The notes under the pieces were generated by a model. It did not search any database and was not told the DNA's origin. It saw only the letters and a program-made list of their open reading frames with translations. Positions 120 to 56,242 of a DNA stretch of 56,242 bases are shown piece after piece. Numbering within the stretch: position 1 is the first letter of the stretch; the number at the start of each line of letters is the position of its first letter. Made by a program: the position numbers and the translations under genes. This stretch comes from a virus: IMG/VR virus record IMGVR_UViG_3300045988_040265, positions 1 through 56,242 of that record; one strand, given 5' to 3'.

Positions 120-289
120 GGAAGATATGTGTAATATCTCTCGTCCTTTCCTTTCCAAACTTCATAATTATGTTGCTCCAAATACCTCTTACGTTCGTTC
201 ATTTCAATTTTTTCTTGTATGGTATCACGACTGATAATACCATTTTCAATTGCGTAATTCAACAATTCTTTATCGGTCAATTCACACAT
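1..289 (-). CDS. int: Tyrosine integrase, N-terminal part (MCELTDKELLNY...VWKGKDERYYTYLPDKHSKSGRRLLKRTNESAIEDAIVDYYKN). It continues in frame across the circular junction into 55189-56242.
   Basis: Hand translation of reverse strand 289->1 is open. 289 maps to 56412 in unrolled coordinates, and 56412-55189+1 = 1224 nt = 408 codons. The segment resembles an arm-binding N-domain. Confidence 0.8.
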   Translation of the reverse strand, partial: MCELTDKELLNYAIENGIISRDTIQEKIEMNERKRYLEQHNYEVWKGKDERYYTYLPDKHSKSGRRLLKRTNESAIEDAIVDYYKNMSNEPYIEDV

Positions 290-497
290 TTTCACTCACT
301 TCCAATCGTTTGATTTTTTCTTTTATGCCACTTATTCTTCGTTCAACAGTCCTAAGCGACAAGCAAGTTTTTATTGATATTTCCTTGTTTGAAAAACCAC
401 GGAAAAGAAATGTAAAAATCTGTTCCTCTTCCGTGGTAAAATTGGCGTTTGATTTTATTTTTTCAAGTTCTGGCTTAGTAAGTTTTGATAACTTCAT
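282..497 (-). CDS. Small HTH protein, sigma-70 region 4 / LuxR-like
   Basis: FTTEEEQIFTFLFRGFSNKEISIKTCLSLRTVERRISGIKEKI. Its stop overlaps the integrase ATG (ATGTGTGA). Confidence 0.6.
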   Translation of the reverse strand: MKLSKLTKPELEKIKSNANFTTEEEQIFTFLFRGFSNKEISIKTCLSLRTVERRISGIKEKIKRLEVSENV

Positions 498-1747: not shown

Positions 1748-2273
1748 ATCCTATCTTTTTTAAGTTAGAAGACGAAATTTCATGCATCTTATTTTTGAGA
1801 TATTCAGGCAATTGCCTTGATTCGGTCTCTTTCAAAGCATACTGTTCATACATCATACGAAAATTAGCACGTTCAACAGAAATGTTTTCAGACATACATA
1901 ACGTATCGTATCCAATCCTGTCAGTACATCTAAGTGCAATCCTGTTTCTTTCGCCAATATATGCTATTCCCTCTTGTTGCCTGTACATTCCGTACTTGCT
2001 AATTGATGTAAGCACCAATTCCCAAGCTTCTCCCCAATCCGGAACATCACCAAAGGCAATGTTAGATGCATATGCCCTTATATCTGCTATTGACGGCGAC
2101 CATTTATTAGTTGCGACCCATTTATTAAGTGCAGCACTTGCTACATCATACGATAGATCCTGTAATTGCATATACCACAATCCCATAGCTTGCTGATTAA
2201 TAAGCAACTTTTCTTCCCTTGAGTAATATGTCTTTAATGCCATTGCGAATTTGCTAAATTCTTCCTTGGTCAT
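1740..2273 (-). CDS. Replicative helicase loader/inhibitor-like protein (G39P-like N-domain)
   Basis: MTKEEFSKFAMALKTYY...LNKWVATNKWSPSIADIRAYA. I prefer the ATG at 2273 (GGAGAG RBS) over the track start at 2300. Confidence 0.6.
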   Translation of the reverse strand: MTKEEFSKFAMALKTYYSREEKLLINQQAMGLWYMQLQDLSYDVASAALNKWVATNKWSPSIADIRAYASNIAFGDVPDWGEAWELVLTSISKYGMYRQQEGIAYIGERNRIALRCTDRIGYDTLCMSENISVERANFRMMYEQYALKETESRQLPEYLKNKMHEISSSNLKKIGCD

Positions 2274-2277
2274 ACCA

Positions 2278-3087: not shown

Positions 3088-3358
3088 TAAGCCCTTTCCC
3101 TAATGCATATCCATACTCTATACAGGCACCTTTTGATTCTCTCCACTTTTTGAGCATAAATATCGAATCGCACATTGATAACATCACAAGCGACATTTTC
3201 ATATAATCGTCCCATGTTGTATTTACTGGAAGATGTGAATTAATTTCCGCGGGATTTATCACATCATATCCTTGTGCTATCAACTTTTCTTCTGCTTCCT
3301 TGAATCTTTTCATATAATCATTTGTTCCTGTAATTGCACCGCTGATGTATATTTTCAC
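3071..3358 (-). CDS. DUF4406-like protein (nucleoside deoxyribosyltransferase-like fold)
   Basis: MKIYISGAITGTNDY...CDSIFMLKKWRESKGACIEYGYA. Confidence 0.65.
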   Translation of the reverse strand: MKIYISGAITGTNDYMKRFKEAEEKLIAQGYDVINPAEINSHLPVNTTWDDYMKMSLVMLSMCDSIFMLKKWRESKGACIEYGYALGKGLNVEFE

Positions 3359-3361
3359 AAC

Positions 3362-3619
3362 CTATTCGCATTCCTTTCTTAGATAATTCATATACCCCAT
3401 AGACTGATTAAGAACATATACCGATACTGCATTTGTAAGCCTTTCAATAAGTTCTCCACTATCTTTATTCAAGTTATAAGCATTCCTTACAACCTCACCA
3501 ATCTGCGTATACTGTGCTTTACCTTGACTGTTTATCCAATCTGTCAAATCCATAACAGATTTACTCTCAATCTTCTTGCCTAAGAAATCGGTTAATTCAA
3601 ATTGTCCGTCCTGTGTCAT
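3362..3619 (-). CDS. Hypothetical protein
   Basis: ORF tightly packed in the operon. Confidence 0.55.
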   Translation of the reverse strand: MTQDGQFELTDFLGKKIESKSVMDLTDWINSQGKAQYTQIGEVVRNAYNLNKDSGELIERLTNAVSVYVLNQSMGYMNYLRKECE

Positions 3620-4470
3620 AGTGTATCTCCTATAAAATCACTTATATTCATCTGACTATCCTTTTCAAATACAAGCATTTCATTTTTTGCACGCTCGTAA
3701 AAGTTTCTGTCAATCTCGAATCCGTATGCACTTCTGCCAAGTTCTGCGGCGGCTCTTAGCGTGCTACCGCTACCACAACAAGGGTCAATAACAACATCTC
3801 CCTCGTCTGTAAAAATCTCAATCAGCTTTTTAAGGACAGCCACGGGCTTTTGTGCTGGATGAATTTTCGGTATATCTTTTCCGTCTTTCTCCCAAGTAAA
3901 CCAATTAAAAATCATATGTCCTGTACCTCTGATATTCTTTCCGTTTTCATCAATCTGCAAGCCGTTTCTGAATTTCGGCAACTTATTTCGGTACAGTACA
4001 AGTGCATATTCCGTAGCACCTACGATACGCATATTCGCTTTAAACACCTGCGGACTGTAATTTTTACAGAATACAAGAGGTATGTAATTGACAAATCCGT
4101 GTTTCTTCGCCGCGGCAATCAATGTTGACAACTGCTCAAATGAGCAAAATACAATCATACAAGGACTGTTACTACTTCTGCCCCTTGCGATAGGCTTTGT
4201 GTCCTCTTTTTTCAACATCTTTGAGCAAAAATGGAAGTATTCATACAGATTAAAATTAAAATCTGAATTAAAAGCCGCCTTTTTCGCAAGTTTGCTCTCA
4301 CCGTTCTTATTATCGCCGCCGTTGTACCACATAGGGTTACTTCCGTAGAAGTTAGTTCCTACATTGTAAGGAACATCAGCTATAATCAACTGTGCTGGCG
4401 GTATTGCGTATTTCTTGTAATTCTGCATAGAATCACGATATATCTCACATTTAATCTTCTTTTTATACAT
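3616..4470 (-). CDS. Orphan DNA methyltransferase (N6-A/N4-C, beta class: motif IV before motif I)
   Basis: IIADVPYNVG (DPPY-like) near the N-terminus and VIDPCCGSGST (FxGxG) near the C-terminus. No adjacent restriction gene. Confidence 0.85.
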   Translation of the reverse strand: MYKKKIKCEIYRDSMQNYKKYAIPPAQLIIADVPYNVGTNFYGSNPMWYNGGDNKNGESKLAKKAAFNSDFNFNLYEYFHFCSKMLKKEDTKPIARGRSSNSPCMIVFCSFEQLSTLIAAAKKHGFVNYIPLVFCKNYSPQVFKANMRIVGATEYALVLYRNKLPKFRNGLQIDENGKNIRGTGHMIFNWFTWEKDGKDIPKIHPAQKPVAVLKKLIEIFTDEGDVVIDPCCGSGSTLRAAAELGRSAYGFEIDRNFYERAKNEMLVFEKDSQMNISDFIGDTL

Positions 4471-4541
4471 TCTAAATCTACCAAAAGGAAACCTCGGTTT
4501 TATGTGCGCACAACCTATTCCTTTCTTTGATTTCTAGTTAG

Positions 4542-4715
4542 TTACTGGGGCTTCCTGCCTGTCTGAAAATACTCGTCATAAGCGTCAACTGTATCGCGTA
4601 TTTCAACCATAGCCATATCAAGTGTTACATCTTTTTTATCCAAGGCTCTTTCTGCATAATCTTTAATTCTCATCATTAAAGCCTGTGCTATTACTATCTT
4701 TGCATTGTCATTCAC
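4542..4715 (-). CDS. Possible small ORF (57 aa, GTG start)
   Basis: Hand translation VNDNAKIVIAQALMMRIKDYAERALDKKDV... It starts in the same GTGATTCAGAGTGA junction motif used by neighbouring genes. Confidence 0.35.
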   Translation of the reverse strand: MNDNAKIVIAQALMMRIKDYAERALDKKDVTLDMAMVEIRDTVDAYDEYFQTGRKPQ

Positions 4716-4721
4716 TCTGAA

Positions 4722-4997
4722 TCACTCGCTTTCTTTTCTCTTAAAATCCTCGCAAGACACATCAAGCAAGCAACCGCATTTTTCGATTTCTGTCACTCCC
4801 CAATATGTCTTATATCTGTAAGAGTTTTCGCATTTAAAACAGAAATCCTTGCCATTATTCAACTTGCAACTTGTCTTTTTGTCCTCTAACTTTTTTCCAA
4901 GACTTTCATTTATCCTTTTGAGTTCCTCGACCTTTTTCTGTGATTTCTCAAAATCTTCAATGAGTTTGTTATATTTCTTATTACTTAAAATCTTCAT
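4722..4997 (-). CDS. Hypothetical protein (coiled coil plus Cys cluster)
   Basis: ORF; ends ..KESE, and the stop is embedded in the junction repeat. Confidence 0.6.
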   Translation of the reverse strand: MKILSNKKYNKLIEDFEKSQKKVEELKRINESLGKKLEDKKTSCKLNNGKDFCFKCENSYRYKTYWGVTEIEKCGCLLDVSCEDFKRKESE

Positions 4998-5299
4998 TCT
5001 GAATCACCCTTTCCATTCCTGTATTCTTCTATTGTCTTGTCAACTCTGTCTTTGCCCCAATCTGCACTACAATACCATTCAACAGCTTTGAAAACAGGAC
5101 TTAGCATTTCAAAGAGCGTTTCCACTCTTATTTTAGCTGATTTGATATATTCAACTAACCGCCTCGTATCTTTTGCAACATCTTCATATCCGTTTTGATT
5201 GAGATAATCAGCCATTTCTTCCAATGTTTCAATGCTGCTGTACTGCATAAGGTCATCAATCTCTTTTGAATATAAATAATTCCAACTTCCACCGCTCAC
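4994..5299 (-). CDS. Hypothetical protein
   Basis: ORF with a GTG start overlapping the upstream stop. Confidence 0.6.
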   Translation of the reverse strand: MSGGSWNYLYSKEIDDLMQYSSIETLEEMADYLNQNGYEDVAKDTRRLVEYIKSAKIRVETLFEMLSPVFKAVEWYCSADWGKDRVDKTIEEYRNGKGDSE

Positions 5300-5895
5300 T
5301 CTGAATCACCCACTTTCAATAAATCCATAAACTTCTCATACTGTTTCTGTGATACCTTGTTATGCTCTTTTTCCGGTTTTAAGCGGATTGTAAGGTGCTT
5401 TTCTGCGATAGACGATAATTCCCTCGCTAACACCTTTTTGCCTTGCTGTATGCCTTGCATATAGCCTTTAGGTGCTTTTCTCTCGCCTATTGAACCACTA
5501 GCACGATTTTCTCCTTGACCGCCCAAACTGACATTCCTAAGCTGATAGCCTTTGTCGGCATACAGCTTGATGTAATACTTCTCTTTCTCGTCAAGCTGAC
5601 TTTCGGAAAAATTCAGAAACTCAACTCGCCAGCCATAAGGATTTTTCTCTTTGTCGTATAGCTTATGTTTGCGTAAGCTAAGGTCTATATGCTGTTCATA
5701 ACCTACAAGGTGGCTTGCCAATCTGCTAAGTGTATGCACCGCCTGTCCAATATACGCATACTTAAATCCGTTTTCATCTTCTCGGAGTAGGAAATAAATC
5801 CCACTCCTGTCATTCAGCTTTGGATTTAACTTCAACAGTCGCTTTTTATTTTCCTGCTCAATCGCCTTGGCTCTTGCTATGTTCTGGTAATTCAA
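5296..5895 (-). CDS. GIY-YIG nuclease domain protein
   Basis: SGIYFLLRED..FKYAYIGQA, YYIKLY. Confidence 0.75.
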   Translation of the reverse strand: MNYQNIARAKAIEQENKKRLLKLNPKLNDRSGIYFLLREDENGFKYAYIGQAVHTLSRLASHLVGYEQHIDLSLRKHKLYDKEKNPYGWRVEFLNFSESQLDEKEKYYIKLYADKGYQLRNVSLGGQGENRASGSIGERKAPKGYMQGIQQGKKVLARELSSIAEKHLTIRLKPEKEHNKVSQKQYEKFMDLLKVGDSE

Positions 5896-6166: not shown

Positions 6167-6387
6167 TTACTCCTTTCCACCTCGTTTTACAATCTCAATG
6201 GCTTCTTTCAATGGTACCATTCCTATATGCCTTGACAGCATGCTTCTTTCCCCCAACTGCTCCACAACCGCATCCTCATCATAGGCGGTTGGTTGACTAT
6301 CCACAAAATCAAGAATCGCTTTCATTTGGCTTTTATTGTAATGTTGCCCTTCAAAATTCAGATTATCTGCGTGTCAATCAGTCTCAT
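6167..6387 (-). pseudogene. Frameshifted copy of the MRLIDADN-family gene
   Basis: 6253-6387 is near-identical to 8701-8833. A 2-nt insertion after the ATG gives MRLIDTQII-stop. The rest (LNFEGQHYNKSQMKAILDFVDSQPTAYDEDAVVEQL...) is open in another frame. Confidence 0.6.
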
Positions 6388-7818: not shown

Positions 7819-8246
7819 TCGTCGTCCTTCCATAACAAATCTTGGGTGTCAAATATGTTGCCGATAACCTCTGCATTAACCATATTTATCCAATAACCTA
7901 AATCTTTTCTGTATCTTTTAGTATACTTGCCTGACCAGTCTACATAAAATCCAACATGTTCAGTTTTGGTGCTATCAAAGCAACTCTGATAACTGCCGTA
8001 TTTGATTTGTGCACAAGCATCACTAAATAAGTCTTTTACAATATCACTCTCCCAAATCAGATTACCGTTCTTGTCTTTCAAGCCTGTGCATTGGCAGATT
8101 GTGGATGGGTCTACTTCAATCATATTAGGCACATCATTTGTCATCCCCCAAAGAATATATCTCTTTTCCCAAATGCCGTATAAATAACCTTGTACCCATT
8201 TCCCATTGTCAGCTCTCTTTGCCTTGAATAAATGTCTATCTTTCAT
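7815..8246 (-). CDS. YopX family protein (paralogue A)
   Basis: FKAKRADNGKWVQGYL...CQCTGLKDKNGNLIWESDIV. Confidence 0.8.
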   Translation of the reverse strand: MKDRHLFKAKRADNGKWVQGYLYGIWEKRYILWGMTNDVPNMIEVDPSTICQCTGLKDKNGNLIWESDIVKDLFSDACAQIKYGSYQSCFDSTKTEHVGFYVDWSGKYTKRYRKDLGYWINMVNAEVIGNIFDTQDLLWKDDE

Positions 8247-8619
8247 CTATTCCATCTCCTTTCTCAAAATAGAACTTAATCGGTTCTCTGTTTTCCTGTA
8301 CCATGCCGTATCTGACTGCGATATTGTATGTACAAACATCCCTCGCCAACCGGTCCGGTATTTTCTGTAACTGCTTTCTGAATGTCTCTAAATCCATTGT
8401 TGCTTTATAACGATTGCACGAACCACAGGACGGCATCAGATTACTTATATCGTGTACGTCTATTCCAGTAAATTCTTCTGTGTACTCATAATTTCTAAGA
8501 CAATGTAAATGGTCTACATTGAAACCTTTCTCCGGTATCTCGCAACCACAGTAAGCACAATGACCATTGTATTTTTCGTATACCTGTTTTCTTACTGATT
8601 TAGGAATTGGCTTTCGCAT
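8236..8619 (-). CDS. HNH endonuclease (paralogue B)
   Basis: GHCAYCG..VDHLHCL..NLMPSCGSCNRYK. Confidence 0.85.
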   Translation of the reverse strand: MRKPIPKSVRKQVYEKYNGHCAYCGCEIPEKGFNVDHLHCLRNYEYTEEFTGIDVHDISNLMPSCGSCNRYKATMDLETFRKQLQKIPDRLARDVCTYNIAVRYGMVQENREPIKFYFEKGDGIDER

Positions 8620-8833
8620 CTACACCACCACCTTTCACAATCTGCATAACTGTCTGATATAGTGCTGATTTTCTACCTACAATTTTGGTTATGTATTCAT
8701 CCAACTGCTCCACAACCGCATCCACATCATAGGCGGTTGGTTGACTATCCACAAAATCAAGAATCGCTTTCATTTGGCTTTTATTGTAATGTTGCCCTTC
8801 AAAATTCAGATTATCTGCATCAATCAATCTCAT
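8600..8833 (-). CDS. Hypothetical protein, MRLIDADN family paralogue 2
   Basis: MRLIDADNLNFEGQHYNKSQMKAILDFVDSQPTAYDVDAVVEQL. Confidence 0.65.
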   Translation of the reverse strand: MRLIDADNLNFEGQHYNKSQMKAILDFVDSQPTAYDVDAVVEQLDEYITKIVGRKSALYQTVMQIVKGGGVDAKANS

Positions 8834-9758: not shown

Positions 9759-10182
9759 TTTCTAATAACTCTTTATTGTCAAAAATGTTGCCGATAACCT
9801 CATAGTCAACAGCTTTTCTATATTCTTTAAAATCATCAGTTTTCCAATCGCAAATCATTGGTTCCCATTTTCCCATTGGAATGTTATGTGAGTTGTTTAA
9901 TACAATGTCAAATCTTGCACAAGGCGCATTCCATTTAACAATAAAATAATTTCCGTTATGCAGAATATCATTTTCCCAAATCAGTTTATCATTCTTATCT
10001 TTCGAGCCTGTGCATTGGCAGATTGTTGTTTCATCCACAATCCTGCAAATATCAACATGGTCAACTGGATAAATTCTGTATGTTTCAGAGGGTTTATTCT
10101 TTTCAATATCCAAAAGAATATTTCCTTGCACCCATTCTCCGTTATCAAGTCTCTTTGCCTTGAATAAATATCTATCTTCCAT
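9748..10182 (-). CDS. YopX family protein (paralogue B)
   Basis: FKAKRLDNGEWVQGN...CQCTGSKDKNDKLIWENDIL. Confidence 0.8.
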   Translation of the reverse strand: MEDRYLFKAKRLDNGEWVQGNILLDIEKNKPSETYRIYPVDHVDICRIVDETTICQCTGSKDKNDKLIWENDILHNGNYFIVKWNAPCARFDIVLNNSHNIPMGKWEPMICDWKTDDFKEYRKAVDYEVIGNIFDNKELLESEG

Positions 10183-10194
10183 ATTTTCTCCTTT

Positions 10195-44050: not shown

Positions 44051-44122
44051 CTGGGCTAGCTGGATTCGAACCAGCGAATGCAGGAGTCAAAGTCCTGTGC
44101 CTTACCGCTTGGCGATAGCCCA
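44051..44122 (-). tRNA. tRNA-Gln (anticodon UUG)
   Basis: TGGGCTATCGCCAAGCGGTAAGGCACAGGA-CTTTGAC-TCCTGCATTCGCTGGTTCGAATCCAGCTAGCCCAG folded by hand as a cloverleaf; collinear with the E. coli tRNA-Gln layout. Confidence 0.88.
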
Positions 44123-44332: not shown

Positions 44333-44357
44333 AAAATTCACCACCTTTATTTTTTAG

Positions 44358-44429
44358 TTGGAATGGTTGGAATCGAACCAACTACACACGGCTTATAAGG
44401 CCACCGCTCTACCAGTGAGCTACATTCCA
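44358..44429 (-). tRNA. tRNA-Ile (anticodon UAU)
   Basis: TGGAATG-TA-GCTC-ACTGGTA-GAGC-G-GTGGC-CTTATAA-GCCGT-GTGTA-GTTGG-TTCGATT-CCAAC-CATTCCA-A. The anticodon stem has two G-U pairs. Confidence 0.78.
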
Positions 44430-47967: not shown

Positions 47968-48363
47968 ATAATATCATATGTGCATTATATCGTCAAGCAT
48001 ATATTGCACATATTTTTATTTTTTTTGGTACTTTTCCATTTTTTCAAGCTCCGTTGCAATCACTTCTTTAATAAATGTGCCCGGCTTTTCAATTCCGAGC
48101 CGGTCCATGCGTTCCCTAGTTCCAGCCGGGAAAACAATATTGATCCTGTCGTTCCTTTCCTCGTACGCTCTTGACGCTCTAAGCTGCGCCGCGCTTGTTT
48201 TGTTTTCGCTCATTTTTCAAAACCTCCGTTTTTTTCTTTATATAATAGCATATGTGCATTATATTGTCAATGTTATATGTGCATTATACATATTATACAA
48301 TAACCCCTTGTTTATATGTGCAATATTTGGTTATTTTTACATCTTGTATATGTGCATTATAAA
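47968..48363. promoter_or_regulatory. Operator/iteron array (ATATGTGCATTATA, 5 direct copies plus 1 inverted) embedded in three promoters around the RHH gene
   Basis: Copies at 47975-47996, 48249-48270, 48275-48291, 48313-48327 and 48347-48363, inverted at 48001-48013. Minus-sense promoters TTGAC(G/A)-N17-TATTAT lie at 47996-47968 and 48270-48242. Confidence 0.7.
48016..48213 (-). CDS. Ribbon-helix-helix (Arc/CopG-like) regulator candidate
   Basis: 65 aa: ..NDRINIVFPAGTRERMDRLGIEKPGTFIKEVIATELEK; flanked by repeated operators. Confidence 0.6.
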   Translation of the reverse strand: MSENKTSAAQLRASRAYEERNDRINIVFPAGTRERMDRLGIEKPGTFIKEVIATELEKMEKYQKK

Positions 48364-50196: not shown

Positions 50197-51240
50197 ATGG
50201 CATGTTTACCGCTTGAAATAACGAACAAAATAGCAAGCAAATATCCGGGATGTTGGGATGATCTGGATATGATTGTTGATGGTGTTCCGATAGACGAACA
50301 CTGTATGTATCCGATAGCCACAGGAATATCTGTTGTTACAAAAGGTGTCAGTGTTCCAGAAGCAAAAAGAGAATTAAGAAATAACATGGAGTTAATTGCT
50401 GATGCAACAACAATGGTTACTGTGGCATCATGGAGAAAGCATAAGCAGATATACAAATTTGAAGAGGAAATGCAGAATCTATTGTTAGAGCAGGGTGATT
50501 CTGATTTAGTGTTGCCGATTGAAGTGCTATATGAAATACCCTATAACTGCATATACGTTCAGCTAAATAATATAGAATCTATGCAGAACGATACAATAGA
50601 TGGATTCTTTGTATCATTTGAGTATGACATGAATACATCGGAAATGGAATTGCGATTGCTTGTGGCATATTCTAACGGAATCACATCACCTATTCCAATA
50701 CATCTTATGAAAGGTGCAACAATTGCTGAGGGTTTCAAAAAGACTTTGCAGATTGCAGACATGAATTCAGATTTTGCAGATAAGTACAATATAAACACAG
50801 AAGATATTCATAGATGGGATAAGGCAGCACTCGATACTGCTTCCAGACTGATTCAACTTGTTTTATATATATGTTCACAGAACAAAGAGATTGAAGAGAA
50901 TCCAGTTCAGAAAAAGATTACAAGAAAACCAAGCCAAAATAATATAAAGGACAAGTTTAGAGAAGTACAGATGTGGGACTGCGGCAAGGAAACATCCGAA
51001 AAGATAAGAAAGATTAATCTTAACCGAAGCAATGTTCAATATGTATATGATGGCCATACCTCTACCGGTCATGGATCACCAAAATCTCCGCATAGCAGAC
51101 GTGGGCACTGGCATCATTTCTGGACTGGGAAGAAAAATTCTGACGAAAGAAAACTTGTTCTTAAATGGTTGGCACCTATGTTTATAAATGGTGGCAATGA
51201 AAACGAAGTAAACATAAATGTAATTGGGGACAGGAGTTAA
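50197..51240 (+). CDS. Hypothetical protein (347 aa) with a basic C-terminal RRGHWHHFWTG...LKWLAPMF motif
   Basis: GGGAGGG RBS; no family recognised. Confidence 0.7.
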   Translation: MACLPLEITNKIASKYPGCWDDLDMIVDGVPIDEHCMYPIATGISVVTKGVSVPEAKRELRNNMELIADATTMVTVASWRKHKQIYKFEEEMQNLLLEQGDSDLVLPIEVLYEIPYNCIYVQLNNIESMQNDTIDGFFVSFEYDMNTSEMELRLLVAYSNGITSPIPIHLMKGATIAEGFKKTLQIADMNSDFADKYNINTEDIHRWDKAALDTASRLIQLVLYICSQNKEIEENPVQKKITRKPSQNNIKDKFREVQMWDCGKETSEKIRKINLNRSNVQYVYDGHTSTGHGSPKSPHSRRGHWHHFWTGKKNSDERKLVLKWLAPMFINGGNENEVNINVIGDRS

Positions 51241-51251
51241 AAATCCTGTCC
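51228..51251 (+). terminator. Intrinsic terminator overlapping the stop codon
   Basis: GGACAGGA-gttaaaaa-TCCTGTCC followed by a T-rich tract. Confidence 0.65.
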
Positions 51252-51381
51252 TCTTATGTTTTTAGAAGATAATGACAATGCAATTATGCCATACGAATTA
51301 CTTGCTTTTAATTTTTCTACAAGAATTTCTCTAGTCATATATTTATTAGTTCTTCTCACATATTCCAAAACTTTATCTATA

Positions 51382-51711
51382 CTATCCATATCGTTTCCTT
51401 TCCATAAATCCATTCATAATATCGTCAGCAAGGTAAATAATATCTCTACCATACAATGATAAAAAATCCGCCACAATTTCTTCCGTCTCAATAGGAATCG
51501 TATAATCATATTCCATTGCATGAACGTGTGTTAATTCGTGGCACAACACTTTATCAGTCATATCTTTTGATAAGCAGTTTGCTATTGTTACAGTTTTTGT
51601 ATTTCTGTCTGTAACCCCCAATGTATACGTGCCGTCTGAACGCATTAATTCGCTTGTATTTGGATTTTTATATTCTATGTGCCAGATTGTACCATTAATA
51701 CTAAAAACCAT
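51382..51711 (-). CDS. Small HExxH metallopeptidase-like protein
   Basis: VLCHELTHVHAMEY; ATG at 51711. Confidence 0.6.
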   Translation of the reverse strand: MVFSINGTIWHIEYKNPNTSELMRSDGTYTLGVTDRNTKTVTIANCLSKDMTDKVLCHELTHVHAMEYDYTIPIETEEIVADFLSLYGRDIIYLADDIMNGFMERKRYG

Positions 51712-51796
51712 TTGTATGCCCCTTTCTGAACTGTTTCCTTTTTGGAAATAATTAATTAAAAACAGGCTATGAATATTTCTACTCATAGCCTATGTC

Positions 51797-52414
51797 CTAC
51801 ATTTTAGAGACAAGTGTACTTAACTTTGATTTTGCTAAGTTTTTTTCTTCCGGAATCATACCTGCAATTAACTCTGTCAGATCGTCTGACAATTCACGCA
51901 TATAAGTTTCCAGATCATGCATTTTTGCTTCCTTGTCCTGCTGCGTATTAGCCTTGTGTGCATCTCTTGTATTCATGTACGTTCTTCTGCTCATTCCACT
52001 CTTTCCTTCTCTGGAATCATGCATATGAGTAGGCTCTGTATAATACATACGTCCATATGGTTCTCTGTCCATATCCCTGTACATTTCAGGTGTCATATGC
52101 CACATAGGTTCATCGTAATTTCTACGATACGTTCCTCTTCCCTTTGGTGCAAATCTTCCATCTTCGTACCGGTAATGATCGTAAAATCTCTTATCTCGTC
52201 CATATCTGTCAAACATCTTTAAGATTTCTTCATCTTCTGATTCATCCATAGTCTTGGCCAACGTCCGATAATACATAGCTTCTGCAAGGTCTTTTATCAT
52301 GTCTATAACTTTTCCCATCTCGCAAGTATCAACACTTTCAAGTCCCTTATCAAACTGTGATTTCGTACATTCAGTAAGTTTTTCAATCATATCATGCATT
52401 CTTTTAATATCCAT
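51797..52414 (-). CDS. Hypothetical protein rich in Arg/Tyr/Met/Asp
   Basis: ..RFYDHYRYEDGRFAPKGRGTYRRNYDEPMWHMTPEMYRDMDREPYGRMYY.. Confidence 0.6.
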   Translation of the reverse strand: MDIKRMHDMIEKLTECTKSQFDKGLESVDTCEMGKVIDMIKDLAEAMYYRTLAKTMDESEDEEILKMFDRYGRDKRFYDHYRYEDGRFAPKGRGTYRRNYDEPMWHMTPEMYRDMDREPYGRMYYTEPTHMHDSREGKSGMSRRTYMNTRDAHKANTQQDKEAKMHDLETYMRELSDDLTELIAGMIPEEKNLAKSKLSTLVSKM

Positions 52415-52415
52415 G

Positions 52416-52832
52416 TTATTTTGCCCCCTTTACTGTCGAAGATTGCGTAACAGGTGTACTATCACCATTAATCGCAGTTAAACGATTGTCTGGAGAACAG
52501 CATGGATTTCCAAGCATTCTAAACAATCCGGAATTGTTAGTTGTTTCAACGATTGTTGAATATCTTGTGCGTGTTCTAAGTCCACATGCCGTAACATGTC
52601 TACAATTTCTCTTTACTAACGGATAAAGTACCGCTCCACCGCCAATTGTAATATAAACAGGAGCATTGATTGTTGTTGCATCTGGTATTGACTGTGCTAC
52701 AACGATACATACTTTTCTATTATTTGCGTAACTTCCGGCAGGCAAGTCAATAACAAGGTTTCCACCTGTAAAAGTTACAGAATTTGAAATTATAAAATTG
52801 TCACATAAATGACATACATTTTTACAACTCAT
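52416..52832 (-). CDS. Hypothetical beta-rich protein bracketed by Cys clusters
   Basis: MSCKNVCHLC...GNPCCSPDN; AGGAGG RBS before the ATG at 52832. Confidence 0.6.
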   Translation of the reverse strand: MSCKNVCHLCDNFIISNSVTFTGGNLVIDLPAGSYANNRKVCIVVAQSIPDATTINAPVYITIGGGAVLYPLVKRNCRHVTACGLRTRTRYSTIVETTNNSGLFRMLGNPCCSPDNRLTAINGDSTPVTQSSTVKGAK

Positions 52833-52881
52833 ATATATACCTCCTAAAAGTAAAGGGCAGATTTTCACCTGCCCTTAAAAA

Positions 52882-53103
52882 TCAAACCTTTTGGCGAAAA
52901 TCGGATAAAATATTAAGTATTTCATTCTGATTCTGAATTATCTTATCAAGGTATTCCCTGTCTTGCTTCTGCAACTCTCTCAACAAATCATCGTTAGATG
53001 TCTGCATCTGGTCATTCTGATAACCGATCATTTGCAGGATTACAGAAAATACATTAAGTGCATCAAGGTAAGATAATCCGTTTGTGCTTTGATTGTTATT
53101 CAT
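52882..53103 (-). CDS. Hypothetical Gln/Asn-rich helical protein (73 aa)
   Basis: The ATG overlaps the upstream TAA (TAATG). Confidence 0.5.
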   Translation of the reverse strand: MNNNQSTNGLSYLDALNVFSVILQMIGYQNDQMQTSNDDLLRELQKQDREYLDKIIQNQNEILNILSDFRQKV

Positions 53104-53888
53104 TAACAACCACATCCGTTGTTATATCCACACCCATATGCATATGCATTTGGATTAGGTACAACGTATGCCGGGATTGCAGTAGGATTTACTGCATTAA
53201 TAATCTGGCTTGTCTGTGCAGTCATGGCGTTAGTCAGAAGTGCGTTCTGTCTATCCTGTGAAGCAGCTCTTCTCAAATCGTTATTCTCTGCCTGTAAGGT
53301 TGCAATCTTGTCATTTGTCAGGAAGTCAAGGATAGCCCTCGTTCCTGCCTGCTGGCTGTCAATAATATCTCTTGTATTATTGTTCATTGTGTTCTGTAAA
53401 GCACAAGTGTTAGTTGCCATGTTGTAGTTTACACCCTGGATGGCTTCTCTCGTCTCGCAGCAGCAGTTAGCAAGCTGTGACTGTAAAGCATTGGTGTTCT
53501 GCATATTAGCGACTGTATCAGCATTAATAGCCTGCTGAATGCCATAACCGGTCTGCATGATATTTGTGTTAATACCATTAAAACCTGTGAGCATACTGTT
53601 GTTCATAGCATAGAAACCATCGCAAAGTCCGTTAGAAATGCCATCTAACTTGCTAATGACTGCGGAATTGTCAAATCCTCTCTGAATATCAGCCTGAGTA
53701 GCTGCAGTAGCGACATAACCGCCATTACCGCCAAAACCTCCGCCAAATCCATTATTTCCCCATCCAAACAACAGGGCGAATACAACGATTATCCACAACC
53801 AACCACCGTCTCCCCAGCCGGCTCCAGAACCATAATTTGAGCCAGCAGGTGTAACCGGCATCATGAAAGGTGTATTTGATTCAAACAT
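53103..53888 (-). CDS. Hypothetical membrane-anchored Gly/Asn/Gln-rich protein with Cys clusters
   Basis: GGWLWIIVVFALLFGWGNNGFGGGFGGNGG..., CCCETRE, C-terminal YGCGYNNGCGC. Confidence 0.65.
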   Translation of the reverse strand: MFESNTPFMMPVTPAGSNYGSGAGWGDGGWLWIIVVFALLFGWGNNGFGGGFGGNGGYVATAATQADIQRGFDNSAVISKLDGISNGLCDGFYAMNNSMLTGFNGINTNIMQTGYGIQQAINADTVANMQNTNALQSQLANCCCETREAIQGVNYNMATNTCALQNTMNNNTRDIIDSQQAGTRAILDFLTNDKIATLQAENNDLRRAASQDRQNALLTNAMTAQTSQIINAVNPTAIPAYVVPNPNAYAYGCGYNNGCGC

Positions 53889-53941
53889 ACCATTTTACCT
53901 CCTAAAAAAATTATTTATACGTAATCTTGCAAGAATTAGTA

Positions 53942-54175
53942 TCATATTCCAAATTTCTGTTTATATGAATTGTATATTTCATCTGCATTTATTCCCTTTT
54001 CTTTGCAGAGATTTCTGGCCATCTGTTCAATGCCGTTCATGTCTCCCTTTTGAGCCATTTCAATTGTGTTTTTAGCCATAGGATTTTGCATAATTTGGCT
54101 ATTTCCAATCATGCTTTGCATAAACTGTTGAGGATTCCCATTTTTAGCCATCTGAAAAATATTAAGTAGATTCAT
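53942..54175 (-). CDS. Hypothetical Met/Gln/Asn-rich protein (77 aa)
   Basis: ORF. Confidence 0.5.
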   Translation of the reverse strand: MNLLNIFQMAKNGNPQQFMQSMIGNSQIMQNPMAKNTIEMAQKGDMNGIEQMARNLCKEKGINADEIYNSYKQKFGI

Positions 54176-54195
54176 TCAAAATCACCACTTTCTTT

Positions 54196-54705
54196 TTAAT
54201 CTTGGACTAAATCTTGACTAATCTTTGACTTAGATGCTGTTTTGGTTGTAGATTTAGTCAAAGACGATTCTAAGCTGCATAACTTTGTTTCTATCTCATC
54301 AAAACGTTTCATAATACCATCTGTAACCTCTTCTGATAGGCTTATTTTCGATTCTGAACCGATGTTTGATGTATTTATACCATTGTTGTTTGAAACAGGC
54401 TTAAAAACGGTTGTGCGGATTGTACCATCTGCATTCCAACCTTTAACATAAATTTCTGACAAGTCCTGTTTAGGGAAAAATGCCATTGAACCATCCATAG
54501 GTACTTCGTTTGCATTTATATTTTCAAGCTCCTGCACAACTCTTCCGTTTATCCCAACGTTTTGAACCGCCTGTTGCGGTTGCGAAAATTGAGGAAATTG
54601 CTGATCGTAGCTTTGCATCCTCTGCTGAGCTGAAATCATAGGATTATATGAAAATGGTTGCGTATATCCAATTTGCGGATTATACATTGTCGGATTCATC
54701 TGCAT
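54196..54705 (-). CDS. Hypothetical protein with a Gln/Pro-rich N-terminus
   Basis: The ATG at 54705 follows GAGGAGG; MQMNPTMYNPQIGYTQPFSYNP.. Confidence 0.6.
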   Translation of the reverse strand: MQMNPTMYNPQIGYTQPFSYNPMISAQQRMQSYDQQFPQFSQPQQAVQNVGINGRVVQELENINANEVPMDGSMAFFPKQDLSEIYVKGWNADGTIRTTVFKPVSNNNGINTSNIGSESKISLSEEVTDGIMKRFDEIETKLCSLESSLTKSTTKTASKSKISQDLVQD

Positions 54706-54826
54706 TATCTTCAACCTCCTCAAGAACATCTTCTATTGCGTGAATTACTTCTGATTGTGTTTGCAGGTCTAATCTTTGCAATTCTTTTCTCATAAATATC
54801 TTTTCTAAAACTTCATCTGAAAACAT
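54680..54826 (-). CDS. Possible small acidic ORF (48 aa), first gene of the cargo operon
   Basis: GGAGG RBS; hand translation MFSDEVLEKIFMRKELQRLDLQTQSEV... Confidence 0.4.
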   Translation of the reverse strand: MFSDEVLEKIFMRKELQRLDLQTQSEVIHAIEDVLEEVEDNADESDNV

Positions 54827-54867
54827 AAGAATCAACCTCCTTATGATTAAATTTTTGCATAAAAAAA

Positions 54868-54934
54868 GACGGTAAAACCGTCAAAAAACCGCCAATATAA
54901 ATTTTTAAAATAAAAAAAGAACGCAAAAACGTTC
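54868..54934 (-). terminator. Two tandem intrinsic terminators downstream of int/attP
   Basis: GACGG-taaaa-CCGTC (54868-54882) and GAACG-caaaaa-CGTTC (54919-54934). Each is followed by a T-run on the minus sense. Confidence 0.65.
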
Positions 54935-54970: not shown

Positions 54971-55189
54971 TTGATTACCTCGTTGATTACCTTTCACTTT
55001 TTCACCTATTTTAGGTGATACCATACAAGTCTCCTTTCCCTAGTATTTACAAGGCTTTCAGACCGTTTCTCTATATTCTAAAATAATGAGACACGGGGGA
55101 TTCGAACCCCGCCGCAATTCCTCTAAAGCCTTGATTTTCCTAACTTTTTTGGTTTTCATTTTGATTACCATGATTACTTTTTGATTACT
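54971..55189. promoter_or_regulatory. attP candidate: tRNA 3'-end-like core (55087-55115) flanked by TTGATTAC arm-type repeats
   Basis: Core minus sense GCGGCGGGG-TTCGAAT-CCCCC-GTGTCTC-A. TTGATTAC(C/T) occurs at 54971, 54983, 55161 and 55181, with ATGATTACT at 55170. Inverted repeat TCACCTA-ttt-TAGGTGA at 55002-55018. Confidence 0.6.
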
Positions 55190-56242
55190 TATGCAGAAAA
55201 AGCACTCTCAATAATCCGCTCTGCTTCTTCTCTGCTTTTGTTGTTGTAGTAATAAAAAGCTCTAGTAGTCTTAATGTCTGTGTGACCCATCTGTGATATT
55301 GTAATGTTATCAGGAACACCTGCATCAATAAGGTGAGTACCGTATGTCATTCTTGCCTTATGTCCCGATCTCCTCTGAATTTTCAGATCATCGCATATAC
55401 GATATAATTTTTCCGTAAATGCGTGTCCTCGCATCCTTTTACCAGACTTGGTAAAAATGTACTCATTACAACTACCACTTATTTCTTTGATTTTTTTCAA
55501 CAAATTAATTGTCTGTTTGGTTATTATAACATTTCTAAATCCAGCATCCGTTTTTGGAAAATCCCTTACTTCAAAAATGTAATTTCCATCATCATCTTTG
55601 TAGCGTATCTCCGTTTTGCTGATATTAATAGAATTTTCATTTATATCCGACCATTTTAAGGATGATAACTCTCCAACTCTCATGCCTGTTTGAAATGCTA
55701 AAAGAACACCATATAAAAGCAATGATGGTTCCTGATTTAAGATGTAATCCGCTATCATTCTTTCTTCTTCGGCGGTGAATACTTTCAAACTATCATCAAC
55801 ATATTTCTTTGTGAAAATCTTCTTTGACAAGTCAAGATCTCCCATGAAATTTGTTATACTGATATTTGTGTATCCTTTTTTCTTTCCATATTTGAAAATT
55901 CCATTAATTAACGTTCTAAGTCCGCTCCAAGCCTTAGATGTAAGATTCATAGAATGAATCGTTGTTTTTATAAATTCTTCAAGCAAATCTTCTGTAATGA
56001 ACCTAAATTCAATTTCAGAAATGAAAGAGTTTTTAATATACCTATCATAGTCGGTTGAATATCTATCATATGTCTGCCGTTGAATCTCTCCATAACTTAA
56101 TTTGCTTTCAATCCACATATTATATACATCTTCAATATAAGGCTCATTTGACATGTTTTTGTAATAATCTACAATTGCATCTTCAATAGCGGATTCGTTA
56201 GTCCTTTTCAGAAGCCTTCTTCCGGATTTCGAATGTTTATCA
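55189..56242 (-). CDS. int: Tyrosine integrase (catalytic body). The ORF is open to the window end and continues at 289->1; full length 407 aa.
   Basis: RVGELSSLKWSDI, HKARMTYGTHL, GHTDIKTTRAFYY (R..HxxR..Y-type motifs). Confidence 0.9.
   Translation of the reverse strand, partial: DKHSKSGRRLLKRTNESAIEDAIVDYYKNMSNEPYIEDVYNMWIESKLSYGEIQRQTYDRYSTDYDRYIKNSFISEIEFRFITEDLLEEFIKTTIHSMNLTSKAWSGLRTLINGIFKYGKKKGYTNISITNFMGDLDLSKKIFTKKYVDDSLKVFTAEEERMIADYILNQEPSLLLYGVLLAFQTGMRVGELSSLKWSDINENSINISKTEIRYKDDDGNYIFEVRDFPKTDAGFRNVIITKQTINLLKKIKEISGSCNEYIFTKSGKRMRGHAFTEKLYRICDDLKIQRRSGHKARMTYGTHLIDAGVPDNITISQMGHTDIKTTRAFYYYNNKSREEAERIIESAFSA
56124..56242. repeat. Second copy of the terminal redundancy (same as 1-119)
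   Basis: Identical sequence. Confidence 0.95.

What the first reader, a model, noticed from the sequence alone, without database searches (positions are those of the whole stretch)
51382..54826. attP-proximal cargo operon of low-complexity, Cys-cluster and membrane proteins with no recognisable function
Two tandem terminators (54868-54934) isolate this eight-gene minus-strand operon from int. It does not look like phage structural or replication genes.
- A 48-aa acidic peptide.
- A protein with a Gln/Pro-rich prion-like N-terminus.
- Two 73-77-aa Met/Gln/Asn-rich helical proteins.
- A 261-aa protein with one TM helix, a GNNGFGGGFGGNGG tract, CCCE and a C-terminal YGCGYNNGCGC.
- A 138-aa beta-rich protein bracketed by Cys clusters (SCKNVCHLC ... 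GNPCCSP).
- An Arg/Tyr/Met-rich 205-aa protein.
- A small HExxH protein.
The composition (Cys brackets, Tyr/Gly richness) is reminiscent of self-assembling, cross-linked surface or spore-coat/appendage-type proteins. That comparison is speculation only. The position next to attP is the classical site for lysogenic-conversion or defence cargo.
Basis: inference. Interest (0 to 1): 0.65.

Follow-up and report, generated by a model that had tools for sequence, protein, structure and literature searches.

The report
Widespread unexplained gut-phage gene cassette
The odd-looking operon is real, and it is one copy of a gene cassette of unknown function that thousands of gut phages carry, from Clostridia phages to crAss-like Bacteroides phages, so it is not private lysogeny cargo of this phage.

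Summary
Nine (not eight) co-oriented minus-strand genes lie at 51237-54826, behind two terminators and a genuine-looking attP. The window is a complete circular 56.1-kb phage genome.

No gene matches a characterised family, apart from a borderline M78-like HExxH peptidase. The set is a conserved cassette:
- **Core genes:** a Q/P-rich protein, a Met/Gln-rich small helical protein, a hydrophobic-anchor coiled-coil protein with an invariant CCC motif, a small helical protein, an exchangeable Cys-bearing beta protein, and an Arg/Tyr-rich protein.
- **Accessories:** a GerE-type HTH gene and one of two alternative putative peptidases.
- **Size of the anchor family:** 973 clusters at 50% identity (E<=1e-10).

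The same gene order recurs in Clostridia prophages, in a Butyrivibrio phage its authors consider virulent, in C. perfringens phages and in Bacteroides/crAss-like phages. It lies next to int/att, after lysis genes, or inside head operons.

"Lysogenic-conversion or defence cargo" and "spore-coat-like" are therefore only weakly supported.

My best reading (low confidence) is an autonomous, mobile accessory cassette. It would build a membrane-associated, cysteine- or metal-stabilised complex inside infected cells.

The parts
54868..54934 (-). Two tandem intrinsic-terminator-like hairpins upstream of P1. The proximal one (54882-54868) belongs to a conserved cassette leader.
   Evidence: Terminator scan. 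In nine loci a GC hairpin of varying sequence plus a T7 run sits at the same place upstream of P1, whatever lies further upstream.
54836..54867 (-). Conserved leader box TTTTTTTATGCAAAAATTTAATCATAAGGAGG. It is a possible extended -10-type promoter (TGnnAAAAT) followed by the ribosome-binding site.
   Evidence: Invariant columns in alignments A9 and A10. One exact copy in the window and one per related locus. The promoter reading is inference.
54680..54826 (-). P1, a 48-aa acidic peptide.
   Evidence: AAGGAGG ribosome-binding site. Homologues at the same position in 14 loci. No family hit.
54196..54705 (-). P2, 169 aa. It has a Q/P/Y-rich N-terminal disordered region, a conserved beta domain of about 55 aa, a short coiled coil and a charged tail.
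   Evidence: phrog_21718 at 3.5e-14, function unknown. Present in 45 of 47 loci. Alignment A6. No PDB sequence match.
53942..54175 (-). P3, a 77-aa Met/Gln/Asn-rich helical protein.
   Evidence: A 66-94-aa ORF of the same composition lies between P2 and P4 in 43 or more loci. Composition. No consistent Pfam hit across 31 members.
53103..53888 (-). P4, 261 aa, the hallmark protein. It has a Gly-flanked hydrophobic anchor, a long Asn/Gln/Ala-rich helical region with an invariant CCC motif, a PxPAY motif and a Cys/Gly tail ending in GCGC.
   Evidence: phrog_16490 at 1.7e-60, function unknown. At least 7950 clusters at 90% identity. 973 clusters at 50% identity with E<=1e-10, lengths about 220-300 aa and no fusions. 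CCC is invariant in 41 of 41 sequences. The crAss-like cr52_1 gp23 aligns at 1e-15.
52882..53115 (-). P5, a 73-77-aa Gln/Asn-rich helical protein.
   Evidence: ORF. Homologues lie between P4 and the P6 slot in L001, L024 and L039 and in many IMG/VR loci.
52416..52832 (-). P6, a 138-aa beta-rich protein. Cys3, Cys7 and Cys10 (CX3CX2C), Cys42 and Cys77 are invariant. The C-terminal CC pair is partly conserved (Cys111 nearly invariant). P6 occupies an exchangeable slot.
   Evidence: More than 5150 clusters. Invariant residues from alignment A4. In relatives, DNA homology stops at the P4 stop codon and resumes at the P7 start, with an unrelated 'P6alt' gene in between. AlphaFold2 models have low confidence, pLDDT 37 and 47.
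51797..52414 (-). P7, 205 aa. Helical ends flank an Arg/Tyr/Asp/Met-rich disordered centre.
   Evidence: Present in 40 of 47 loci. In other lineages the slot holds an RDY-rich region plus Pfam DUF7841. Composition.
51382..51711 (-). P8, a 109-aa HExxH putative metallopeptidase.
   Evidence: Pfam Peptidase_M78 at 21.2 bits, against a gathering threshold of 22. phrog_1233 at 2.3e-14. Mutually exclusive across loci with a Cys-His-Asp protein, 'cysP'. A P8-like HExxH gene closes the cassette in Bacteroides phage C3_41T2LP.
51237..51389 (-). P9, a 50-aa protein.
   Evidence: Ribosome-binding site. Co-occurs with P8 in 12 or more loci. Its stop codon lies in the hairpin shared with the convergent gene.
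54975..55195 (-). attP. A tRNA/tmRNA-like 3'-end core lies at about 55088-55120, flanked by GTAATCA arm-type repeats.
   Evidence: Integrase at 55189-56154 (phrog_1 at 1e-42).
282..497 (-). A 71-aa GerE/LuxR-type (sigma-70 region-4-like) HTH gene. In this circular genome it is separated from P1 only by int and attP.
   Evidence: Pfam GerE at 25.9 bits, above the gathering threshold of 23.5. Circularity. The same family lies directly upstream of the cassette in L033, L035, L036 and many IMG/VR loci.

Best explanation
The operon is one copy of an autonomous, horizontally mobile accessory cassette of gut phages.

**Composition.** The core is P2-P3-P4-P5-(P6 or P6alt)-P7. It comes with a small GerE/sigma-r4-type HTH gene and one of two alternative putative peptidases. 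In this lineage it also has P1 and P9.

**Proposed working (inferred).**
- P4 inserts its Gly-flanked hydrophobic segment into the cytoplasmic membrane.
- P4 oligomerises through its long heptad-like helical region. The invariant CCC layer and the Cys/Gly tail would then form a thiol cluster that binds metal or cross-links subunits.
- The exchangeable Cys-bearing beta protein in the P6 slot is a second component of the same assembly. Direct docking onto P4 is not supported by the swap data, because near-identical P4 proteins pair with either occupant. The occupant is P6 here and a BclA-C/C1q-like protein in relatives.
- The Q/P/Y-rich P2 and the Arg/Tyr-rich P7 provide multivalent, disordered scaffolding.
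- The Met/Gln-rich P3 and P5 act as small helical adaptors or chaperones.
- The peptidase (P8 here, a Cys-His-Asp protein elsewhere) matures or regulates the assembly.

No component has a signal peptide, so the complex would form on the cytoplasmic side inside the infected cell.

**Role.** The cassette occurs in phages with no evident lysogeny module and inside late head operons. Its role therefore belongs at least to lytic development, for example as a membrane-associated platform or compartment, or in control of the cell envelope or membrane. It is not specific to lysogenic conversion.

**Shown:** the genes, their conservation, gene order, slot swapping, complementary distribution of the two peptidases, genomic contexts, and the insulated leader.

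**Inferred:** membrane anchoring, oligomerisation, physical complex formation, proteolysis, timing of expression and purpose.
For: **Conserved order across many loci.**
- Order is conserved in 47 loci from genomes and phage records.
- It is conserved in 80 IMG/VR loci, out of at least 575 matching contigs.

**Size of the P4 family.**
- At least 7950 clusters at 90% identity.
- 973 clusters at 50% identity with E<=1e-10, of uniform length.

**Cross-phylum conservation of the whole set.**
- crAss-like cr52_1 has gp22 (DUF7841 plus an RYGD tail), gp23 (P4-like, 1e-15), gp24 (beta-rich) and gp25 (beta domain plus coiled coil).
- Bacteroides phage C3_41T2LP has an HTH gene, P4, a P6-like protein sharing the G[LI]FR[ML][LM]G motif and a CC pair, a P2-like protein, an RDY-rich protein, DUF7841 and an HExxH peptidase.

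**Mobility between contexts.**
- At the end of the early operon next to int and attP (window, L041-L046).
- After lysis genes at prophage ends.
- Between the MuF-like and scaffold genes of head operons.
- In Ceridwen, after the endolysin gene. Its authors regard this phage as virulent.

**Autonomy.** A conserved terminator plus an invariant leader box lies upstream of P1.

**Exchangeable slot.** DNA homology breaks exactly at the gene borders. hhalign finds no relationship between P6 and P6alt.

**Peptidase complementarity.** P8 and cysP never co-occur. cysP has invariant Cys, His and Asp.

**P4 and P6 anatomy.**
- P4: invariant CCC motif, Gly-flanked hydrophobic core and heptad-like helical region.
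- P6: invariant CX3CX2C.

**No compositional anomaly.** GC content here is 0.34-0.41, like the rest of the genome, so this is not a recent foreign insert.
Against: - No experiment or homology ties any core protein to a function.
- Structure prediction of P6 failed (pLDDT 37 and 47). Foldseek found nothing.
- The P4 hydrophobic segment is short (12-15 residues) and lacks flanking positive charges, so membrane insertion is uncertain.
- Interaction among the proteins is inferred from gene order alone.
- Placement at prophage ends behind terminators, with a possible host-type promoter, equally fits expression in lysogens.
- Placement inside head operons equally fits a virion-associated role.
- No sigma-70-type promoter was detected by the standard scan.
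Confidence: 0.35

Rival explanations
1. The cassette is expressed from the prophage. It acts on the lysogen through superinfection exclusion, defence or cell-envelope modification. This is essentially the first reader's view.
For: - It is next to attP here.
- It is at prophage ends, next to host genes or a reversed int, in L047-L049, L050 and about 18 of 80 IMG/VR loci.
- It is insulated by terminators and has a conserved -10-like leader box that could work with host RNA polymerase.
- P4 resembles a membrane protein.
- The variable P6 slot is reminiscent of specificity modules.
Against: - No PADLOC model matches, apart from a compositional 0.002 hit to the coiled-coil tail of ZorA.
- The cassette is present in Ceridwen, which is regarded as virulent, and in crAss-like and Bacteroides phages, including inside the structural block of crAss-like cr52_1.
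- It is embedded in late head operons in about 33 of 80 loci.
- Five to nine genes rich in low-complexity sequence are unlike known exclusion proteins.
- No secreted component is evident: no protein has a signal peptide.
Confidence: 0.2
2. The cassette encodes virion-associated proteins. One form would be a trimeric coiled-coil fibre (P4) with an exchangeable knob (P6 or P6alt). The other would be internal or ejected proteins that enter the host membrane, processed by the peptidase.
For: - It lies between the MuF-like and scaffold/major capsid genes in many Oscillospiraceae phages.
- It lies in the structural block of crAss-like cr52_1.
- Annotators of crAss-like genomes labelled the P4 homologue 'viral fiber' or 'spike'.
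- There is weak similarity to the coronavirus HR1 coiled coil (E 0.2-0.4).
- P6alt has a sub-threshold BclA_C match, a trimeric knob fold.
- The slot swapping resembles exchange of receptor-binding tips.
Against: - The same cassette moves between unrelated virion types: siphophage-like Clostridia phages and crAss-like phages. In this window and in C3_41T2LP it sits among early, replication or recombination genes. That is unexpected for a part that must dock onto a specific capsid or tail.
- No match to any solved virion protein.
- A hydrophobic anchor and a dedicated HTH gene are atypical for fibres.
Confidence: 0.2
3. The cassette makes spore-coat, exosporium or appendage-like proteins that remodel the spores of lysogens.
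For: - The composition is Cys-, Gly- and Tyr-rich, and no protein has a signal peptide, as is the case for coat proteins.
- P6alt has a BclA_C lead (1.6e-5, below threshold).
- Many hosts are Clostridia.
Against: - P6 in this window has no hit to BclA_C, DUF3992 or any other Pfam family at E<=1.
- No NCBIfam sporulation family matches.
- The cassette occurs in phages of Bacteroides and Butyrivibrio, which to my knowledge do not form spores, and in a MAG assigned to Collinsella.
- It is embedded in lytic head operons.
Confidence: 0.04

Closest known systems
Phage morons and lysogenic-conversion cassettes (for example lambda bor and lom): insulated accessory transcription units between core phage operons
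   Same: - It is a self-contained unit with an upstream terminator and a conserved leader box.
- It is found at module boundaries: near att/int, after lysis genes, and between head genes.
- It moves between unrelated phages.
   Different: - It has six to nine co-evolving genes rather than one or two.
- It is present in phages with no evident lysogeny module.
- Its GC content is like the rest of the genome.
- Expression in lysogens is untested.
BclA C-terminal domain (Pfam PF18573): the TNF/C1q-like trimerising knob of Bacillus exosporium filaments
   Same: The P6alt proteins that replace P6 in relatives match the BclA_C model over its full length (positions 5-127 of 128) at 1.6e-5 to 5.5e-5.
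   Different: - The score of 23.5 bits is below the gathering threshold of 38.
- Only 3 of 19 P6alt proteins hit.
- There is no collagen-like region.
- A P6alt profile finds no PDB sequence.
- The window's own P6 shows no relationship to P6alt or BclA_C.
ImmA/IrrE (Peptidase_M78) metallopeptidases of phages and integrative elements
   Same: P8 has the HExxH motif (HELTH) and matches Peptidase_M78 at 21.2 bits, with E=2.7e-4.
   Different: - The score is just below the gathering threshold of 22.
- P8 is only 109 aa.
- It is not paired with an XRE-type repressor. P9 has no HTH hit.
- In other lineages it is replaced by an unrelated Cys-His-Asp protein.
Coiled-coil membrane proteins of phage infection: spanins, phi29 p16.7, and the cytoplasmic coiled-coil tail of Zorya ZorA
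   Same: P4 has an N-terminal hydrophobic anchor followed by a long helical, heptad-like region with conserved cysteines. There is a weak compositional hit to the ZorA tail (0.002) and to viral HR1 coiled coils.
   Different: - There is no significant homology to any of them.
- The cassette occurs in phages of both Bacillota and Bacteroides hosts, whose cell envelopes differ, so a spanin role is unlikely.
- No DNA-binding or motor domain is present.
Cys-rich self-assembling spore-surface proteins (CotY/ExsY, Ena subunits). This comparison is from memory and is a lead only.
   Same: P6 is a small beta-rich protein with terminal cysteine clusters and no signal peptide.
   Different: - There is no Pfam or NCBIfam hit to these families.
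- The host range includes bacteria that, to my knowledge, do not form spores.
- The fold is undetermined.

Membership tests
BclA_C (PF18573) | Pfam model score at or above the gathering threshold (38 bits) | tested here: not met
   Window P6 gives no Pfam hit at E<=1. P6alt from relatives scores at best 23.5 bits, and only 3 of 19 members hit.
Endospore appendage and spore-surface families (DUF3992/Ena, CotY/ExsY, YjcZ) | A match to the Pfam or NCBIfam family models | tested here: not met
   None of P1-P9 hit a model of these families; P6 gave no hit at all at E<=1.
Endospore appendage and spore-surface families (DUF3992/Ena, CotY/ExsY, YjcZ) | Restriction to spore-forming hosts | tested here: not met
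   The cassette is found in Bacteroides and crAss-like phages and in a Butyrivibrio phage. That these hosts do not form spores is my own knowledge, not a tool result.
Peptidase_M78 (ImmA/IrrE) | HExxH motif and a Pfam score at or above the gathering threshold (22 bits) | tested here: inconclusive
   The HELTH motif is present. The score is 21.2 bits at E=2.7e-4, just under threshold.
Peptidase_M78 (ImmA/IrrE) | An adjacent XRE-type repressor as substrate | tested here: not met
   The neighbours are P7 and P9, and neither has an HTH_3 hit.
Known anti-phage defence systems (PADLOC-DB 2.0) | A match of any component to a defence-system model | tested here: not met
   The only hit is P4 against the ZorA tail, at 0.002 and 15 bits over the coiled-coil region. 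The other nine proteins scanned (eight cassette proteins and the convergent 347-aa neighbour) give nothing.
Moron or lysogenic-conversion unit | Its own terminator and promoter, insulating it from the neighbouring operons | tested here: inconclusive
   The upstream terminators are confirmed and conserved. The leader box resembles an extended -10 element, but no canonical promoter was found.
Moron or lysogenic-conversion unit | Expression from the repressed prophage | not testable with these tools
   This needs transcriptomics of a lysogen.
Virion structural proteins | Homology to known or solved virion components, or a structural PHROG category | tested here: not met
   All PHROG hits are 'unknown function'. 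PDB sequence and profile searches are negative.
GerE/LuxR HTH (the associated regulator at 282-497) | Pfam GerE score at or above the gathering threshold (23.5 bits) | tested here: met
   25.9 bits at E=7.6e-6.

The most novel reading that the evidence does not exclude
The cassette builds a membrane-tethered proteinaceous body inside infected gut anaerobes. This could be a condensate or a cross-linked or metal-bridged lattice.

The proposed parts are:
- a prion-like Tyr/Gln/Pro-rich domain (P2);
- an Arg/Tyr-rich disordered protein (P7);
- a Gly/aromatic anchor protein with a tri-cysteine coiled coil (P4);
- an exchangeable beta-sandwich subunit (P6 or P6alt);
- a dedicated maturation peptidase.

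This would be a previously undescribed, cross-phylum phage 'organelle'. It might act as a viral factory, an assembly platform or a protective matrix, and it would be shared by Clostridia phages and crAss-like phages.
Probability: 0.15. Interest if true: 0.85.

Novelty: categorically new. Interest (0 to 1): 0.6.

Why it matters
Gut viromes are dominated by genes of unknown function.

This cassette is a large, coherent piece of that unknown fraction. It is a syntenic set of six to nine genes whose hallmark protein forms about 1,000 clusters at 50% identity. It is present in prophages of Lachnospiraceae and Oscillospiraceae, in cultured Butyrivibrio, C. perfringens and Bacteroides phages, and in crAss-like phages.

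A module kept across hosts with such different cell envelopes, and moved between early, late and prophage-end positions, must do something general for phage success in the anaerobic gut.

It is experimentally tractable, because cultured phage-host pairs carry it. Working out its function would annotate thousands of phage genomes at once. It could also reveal a new type of intracellular phage assembly, or a new interaction between phage and host membrane.

Tried and rejected
**Family and structure-sequence searches that found nothing useful.**
- Pfam, NCBIfam, PHROGs and PADLOC scans of all nine proteins gave no functional family, apart from the borderline M78 hit for P8.
- PDB sequence searches with P6 and P4 gave nothing.
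- PDB profile searches with the P6alt, cysP, P2 and P4 alignments gave nothing significant.

**Structure prediction of P6.**
- AlphaFold2 with 25 aligned sequences gave pLDDT 37. With 86 sequences it gave pLDDT 47.
- Foldseek against the PDB gave only noise, with E>=1.7.
- The family is too uniform (at least 56% identity among retrievable hits) for coevolution signal.

**Homology and domain ideas that failed.**
- hhalign of P6 against P6alt found no relationship.
- The idea that P3 and P5 are STI1/XPC-binding-like helical chaperones was not supported. A Pfam scan of 31 P3 members gave only scattered noise.
- BLASTP of crAss-like gp24 against P6 was not significant. A local HMM gave only a weak hit.

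**Other searches.**
- Literature searches for DUF7841 and the PHROG identifiers returned no papers. A broader search returned nothing relevant.
- No close annotated relative of the whole phage exists in the phage collection.
- The cassette is essentially absent from plasmids. Of only two hits, one is a prophage on a Vescimonas replicon and the other a partial match on a 2.3-kb Parabacteroides record.
- The alignment-based scan of viral contigs failed for lack of a conserved stretch. It was replaced by a single-protein scan.

**Considered and rejected from the sequence alone.**
- RiPP/SCIFF-type precursor: no maturase gene is present.
- Spanin: the hosts span different cell-envelope types.
- Radical-SAM enzyme: P6 has the CX3CX2C motif, but at 138 aa and beta-rich it is too small.

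Full report
**What is in the window.**

The window is a complete circular phage genome. Bases 1-119 repeat exactly at 56124-56242, which gives 56,123 bp. Terminase, portal and tail genes lie on the minus strand, and there are two tRNA genes.

The region in question holds nine co-oriented minus-strand genes, here called P1 to P9, at 51237-54826. Ribosome-binding sites and homologue lengths refine four starts:
- P2 at 54705
- P6 at 52832
- P8 at 51711
- P9 at 51389

The two terminator-like hairpins at 54934-54919 and 54882-54868 are confirmed.

Between them and the integrase gene (55189-56154; phrog_1 at 1e-42) lies a convincing attP:
- A tRNA/tmRNA-like T-arm and acceptor 3' end sits at about 55088-55120.
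- Five of the window's seven minus-strand GTAATCA copies bracket it.

One gene (P9) was missed. The hydrophobic segment of P4 is only borderline for a transmembrane helix (Kyte-Doolittle 1.59 over 19 residues).

**No known family.**

Pfam, NCBIfam, PHROGs and PADLOC scans, and PDB sequence searches, give nothing functional for P1 to P7. PHROGs recognises P2 (phrog_21718), P4 (phrog_16490, 1.7e-60) and P8 (phrog_1233), all labelled 'unknown function'.

P8 has an HExxH motif and scores 21.2 bits against Peptidase_M78, where the threshold is 22.

Two AlphaFold2 runs on P6 failed, with pLDDT 37 and 47. The retrievable family members are at least 56% identical, which leaves too little variation. 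Foldseek then returned noise.

**It is a conserved cassette, not private cargo.**

P4 has at least 7950 relatives at 90% clustering. At 50% clustering there are 973 clusters with E<=1e-10, all about 220-300 aa and without fusions. P6 has more than 5150 clusters.

I fetched 36 loci from species-representative genomes. Their hosts include Lachnospiraceae, Oscillospiraceae, Ruminococcus, Acutalibacteraceae and Faecousia. I added phage records and encoding contigs and ran iterative HMMs over all ORFs. The results were:
- P4 in all 47 loci
- P2 in 45
- P7 in 40
- a P3-type Met/Gln-rich ORF of 66-94 aa between P2 and P4 in 43 or more
- either P6 (16 loci) or an unrelated 'P6alt' (27 loci) in the same slot

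The order P2-P3-P4-(P5)-P6|P6alt-P7 is invariant.

A scan of IMG/VR with an Oscillospiraceae-type P4 found at least 575 contigs. All 80 loci examined showed the same order.

**Accessory parts.**

A small GerE/sigma-70-region-4-type HTH gene usually precedes the cassette. In this circular genome it is the 71-aa gene at 282-497 (GerE at 25.9 bits, above threshold). Only int and attP separate it from P1. In L033 it abuts P1 directly.

Relatives L041-L046 have a different, 415-aa integrase in the same place. The int-attP unit is therefore an insertion specific to this lineage. It lies between the regulator and the cassette.

P8 and P9 occur in one set of loci. A 125-aa protein with invariant Cys18, His97 and Asp108 ('cysP') occurs in the other set. 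The two never occur together. This complementary distribution suggests that the cassette needs a peptidase of either kind. That is an inference.

**The P6 slot is exchangeable.**

DNA homology between the window and relatives L033 and L004 stops at the P4 stop codon (53103). It resumes at the P7 start (52414). The segment in between encodes P5 and P6 here and P6alt there.

hhalign finds no similarity between the two families. Three of 19 P6alt proteins hit Pfam BclA_C over the full model at about 1e-5, which is below threshold. A P6alt profile finds no PDB sequence. The window's P6 hits nothing.

P6 has invariant Cys3, Cys7 and Cys10 (CX3CX2C), Cys42 and Cys77.

**Cross-phylum reach.**

*crAss-like phage cr52_1:*
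- gp23 aligns with P4 at 1e-15 over almost its whole length. It shares the Gly-flanked hydrophobic segment, the CCC(D/E)xRE motif, the PxPAY motif and the GCGC tail.
- gp22 is Pfam DUF7841 (8.6e-43) plus an Arg/Tyr/Gly/Asp tail.
- gp24 is a beta-rich protein.
- gp25 is a beta domain plus a coiled coil.

*Clostridia prophages.* DUF7841 joined to an RDY-rich region also fills the P7 slot there.

*Cultured Bacteroides phage C3_41T2LP:*
- an HTH gene
- P4
- a P6-like protein that shares a G[LI]FR[ML][LM]G motif and a CC pair with P6
- a P2-like protein
- a 77-aa RDY-rich protein
- DUF7841 (5e-16)
- an HExxH protein recognised by the P8 HMM (4e-5)

*Other cultured carriers.* Butyrivibrio phage Ceridwen carries the cassette, and its authors regard it as virulent (PMC7372960). 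C. perfringens phage XP41-N3 also carries it.

**Where the cassette sits.**

There are four recurrent contexts:
1. At the end of the replication/early operon next to int and attP. This applies to the window and L041-L046.
2. Among recombination genes, in C3_41T2LP.
3. After the holin and endolysin genes, before att or a reversed int. This applies to L047-L049, the Vescimonas fastidiosa MM35 prophage, and Ceridwen after its endolysin.
4. Inside the head operon, in the order terL, portal, MuF-like, cysP, HTH, P2 to P7, scaffold, major capsid. This applies to about 33 of 80 IMG/VR loci and 8 genome loci.

It is always co-oriented with its neighbours. GC content here matches the rest of the genome.

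**A conserved leader.**

In nine P1-bearing loci the sequence just upstream of P1 has the same layout:
- a GC hairpin whose sequence differs from locus to locus;
- an invariant T7 run;
- an invariant ATGCMAAAATWTAAKCA;
- the ribosome-binding site.

The box occurs exactly once in the window and once per related locus. The proximal 'terminator' therefore belongs to the cassette and is not a feature of int.

The box contains TGnnAAAAT, which could be an extended -10 promoter. This is inference, and the standard promoter scan finds nothing there. The Vescimonas prophage also has two terminators ahead of its cassette. The head-operon copies lack such a terminator.

**Interpretation.**

The data show a self-contained, mobile accessory cassette that has been maintained across very different phages and hosts.

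- *Against a spore-specific role.* The host range includes Bacteroides and Butyrivibrio.
- *Against a purely lysogenic role.* The cassette occurs in phages without an evident lysogeny module, and in head operons.
- *Against an integral virion part.* It moves between unrelated virion types and into early regions. It also matches no solved virion protein. The head-operon copies keep this rival alive.

No component has a signal peptide, so any complex would form in the cytoplasm or on the inner face of the membrane.

The anatomy points to a self-assembling complex that is anchored in the membrane and stabilised by thiols or metal:
- a hydrophobic anchor followed by a long helical region with an invariant tri-cysteine layer;
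- an exchangeable Cys-bearing beta protein;
- a Tyr/Gln/Pro-rich disordered protein and an Arg/Tyr-rich disordered protein;
- Met/Gln-rich small helical proteins;
- a peptidase and a dedicated HTH gene.

I commit to that reading at about 0.35. I place its action at least in the lytic cycle. Its purpose is unresolved. It could be an assembly platform or compartment, membrane control, or exclusion.

**Verdict.**

'No recognisable function, insulated, attP-proximal' is right. 'Lysogenic-conversion or defence cargo' and 'spore-coat-like' are weakly supported at best.
- No described system matches.
- The finding matters less for this one phage than because it exposes a very widespread, experimentally tractable and uncharacterised phage module.

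Noticed in passing
window 1-119 and 56124-56242: There is an exact 119-bp terminal repeat. The window is therefore a circularly assembled, complete phage genome of 56,123 bp, and genes at the left end lie upstream of int and the cassette.
   Followed up: yes
window 54975-55195: attP anatomy: a tRNA/tmRNA-like 3' end at about 55088-55120, flanked by three and two GTAATCA repeats. The host attB (which tRNA gene) was not identified.
   Followed up: partly
L007 1023-3189: In this Firmicutes CAG:882 scaffold the P4 gene is split into two pieces (residues about 30-150 and 144-251) by an insertion of about 1.26 kb. This could be a mobile element or intron inside the hallmark gene.
   Followed up: no
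L035 8436-8849 and 23 other loci (cysP): This is a family of about 125 aa with invariant Cys18, His97 and Asp108 and an N-terminal NPNP motif (phrog_3754, function unknown). It has no Pfam or PDB match and looks like an undescribed small papain-like peptidase or amidase. It is strictly complementary to the HExxH protein P8.
   Followed up: partly
L040 (crAss-like cr52_1) 1751-5640: Several ORFs contain in-frame stop codons under translation table 11. This is consistent with stop-codon reassignment in this crAss-like phage. A reverse-transcriptase gene sits just upstream of the cassette-like genes.
   Followed up: no
window 6248-6370 and 8696-8818; also 7833-8252 and 9763-10188: A 123-nt direct repeat at 98% identity and several repeats at 83-89% identity indicate duplicated paralogous genes in the early region.
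   Followed up: no
window 47968-48004 and 48242-48278: A 37-nt repeat (86% identity) lies in the divergent region between the late operon and the plus-strand gene cluster. It overlaps promoter-like sites and could be an operator pair.
   Followed up: no
window 50197-51240 (+): A 347-aa protein (phrog_6160 at 1.8e-51, function unknown) with a His/Gly/Ser-rich C-terminal part. It is convergent with the cassette and shares the terminator hairpin at 51226-51253. It was not found in the related loci.
   Followed up: partly
window 510-1151 (-): A 213-aa protein made of repeated CxxC...CxxC units, resembling a zinc ribbon. It lies just upstream of the GerE-type HTH gene. Relatives L041-L046 have a similar gene there, with faint DZR_2 hits.
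   Followed up: no
window 44051-44122 and 44357-44429 (-): The phage encodes tRNA-Gln(UUG) and tRNA-Ile(UAU) upstream of the packaging genes.
   Followed up: no
L002 9359-9685 and L011 11754-12089: A conserved protein of about 110 aa (motif GDSEFYRAIKGK...VWxxMDELMxT) follows P7 in Ceridwen and in the locus assigned to Collinsella. It may be a further optional member of the cassette.
   Followed up: no
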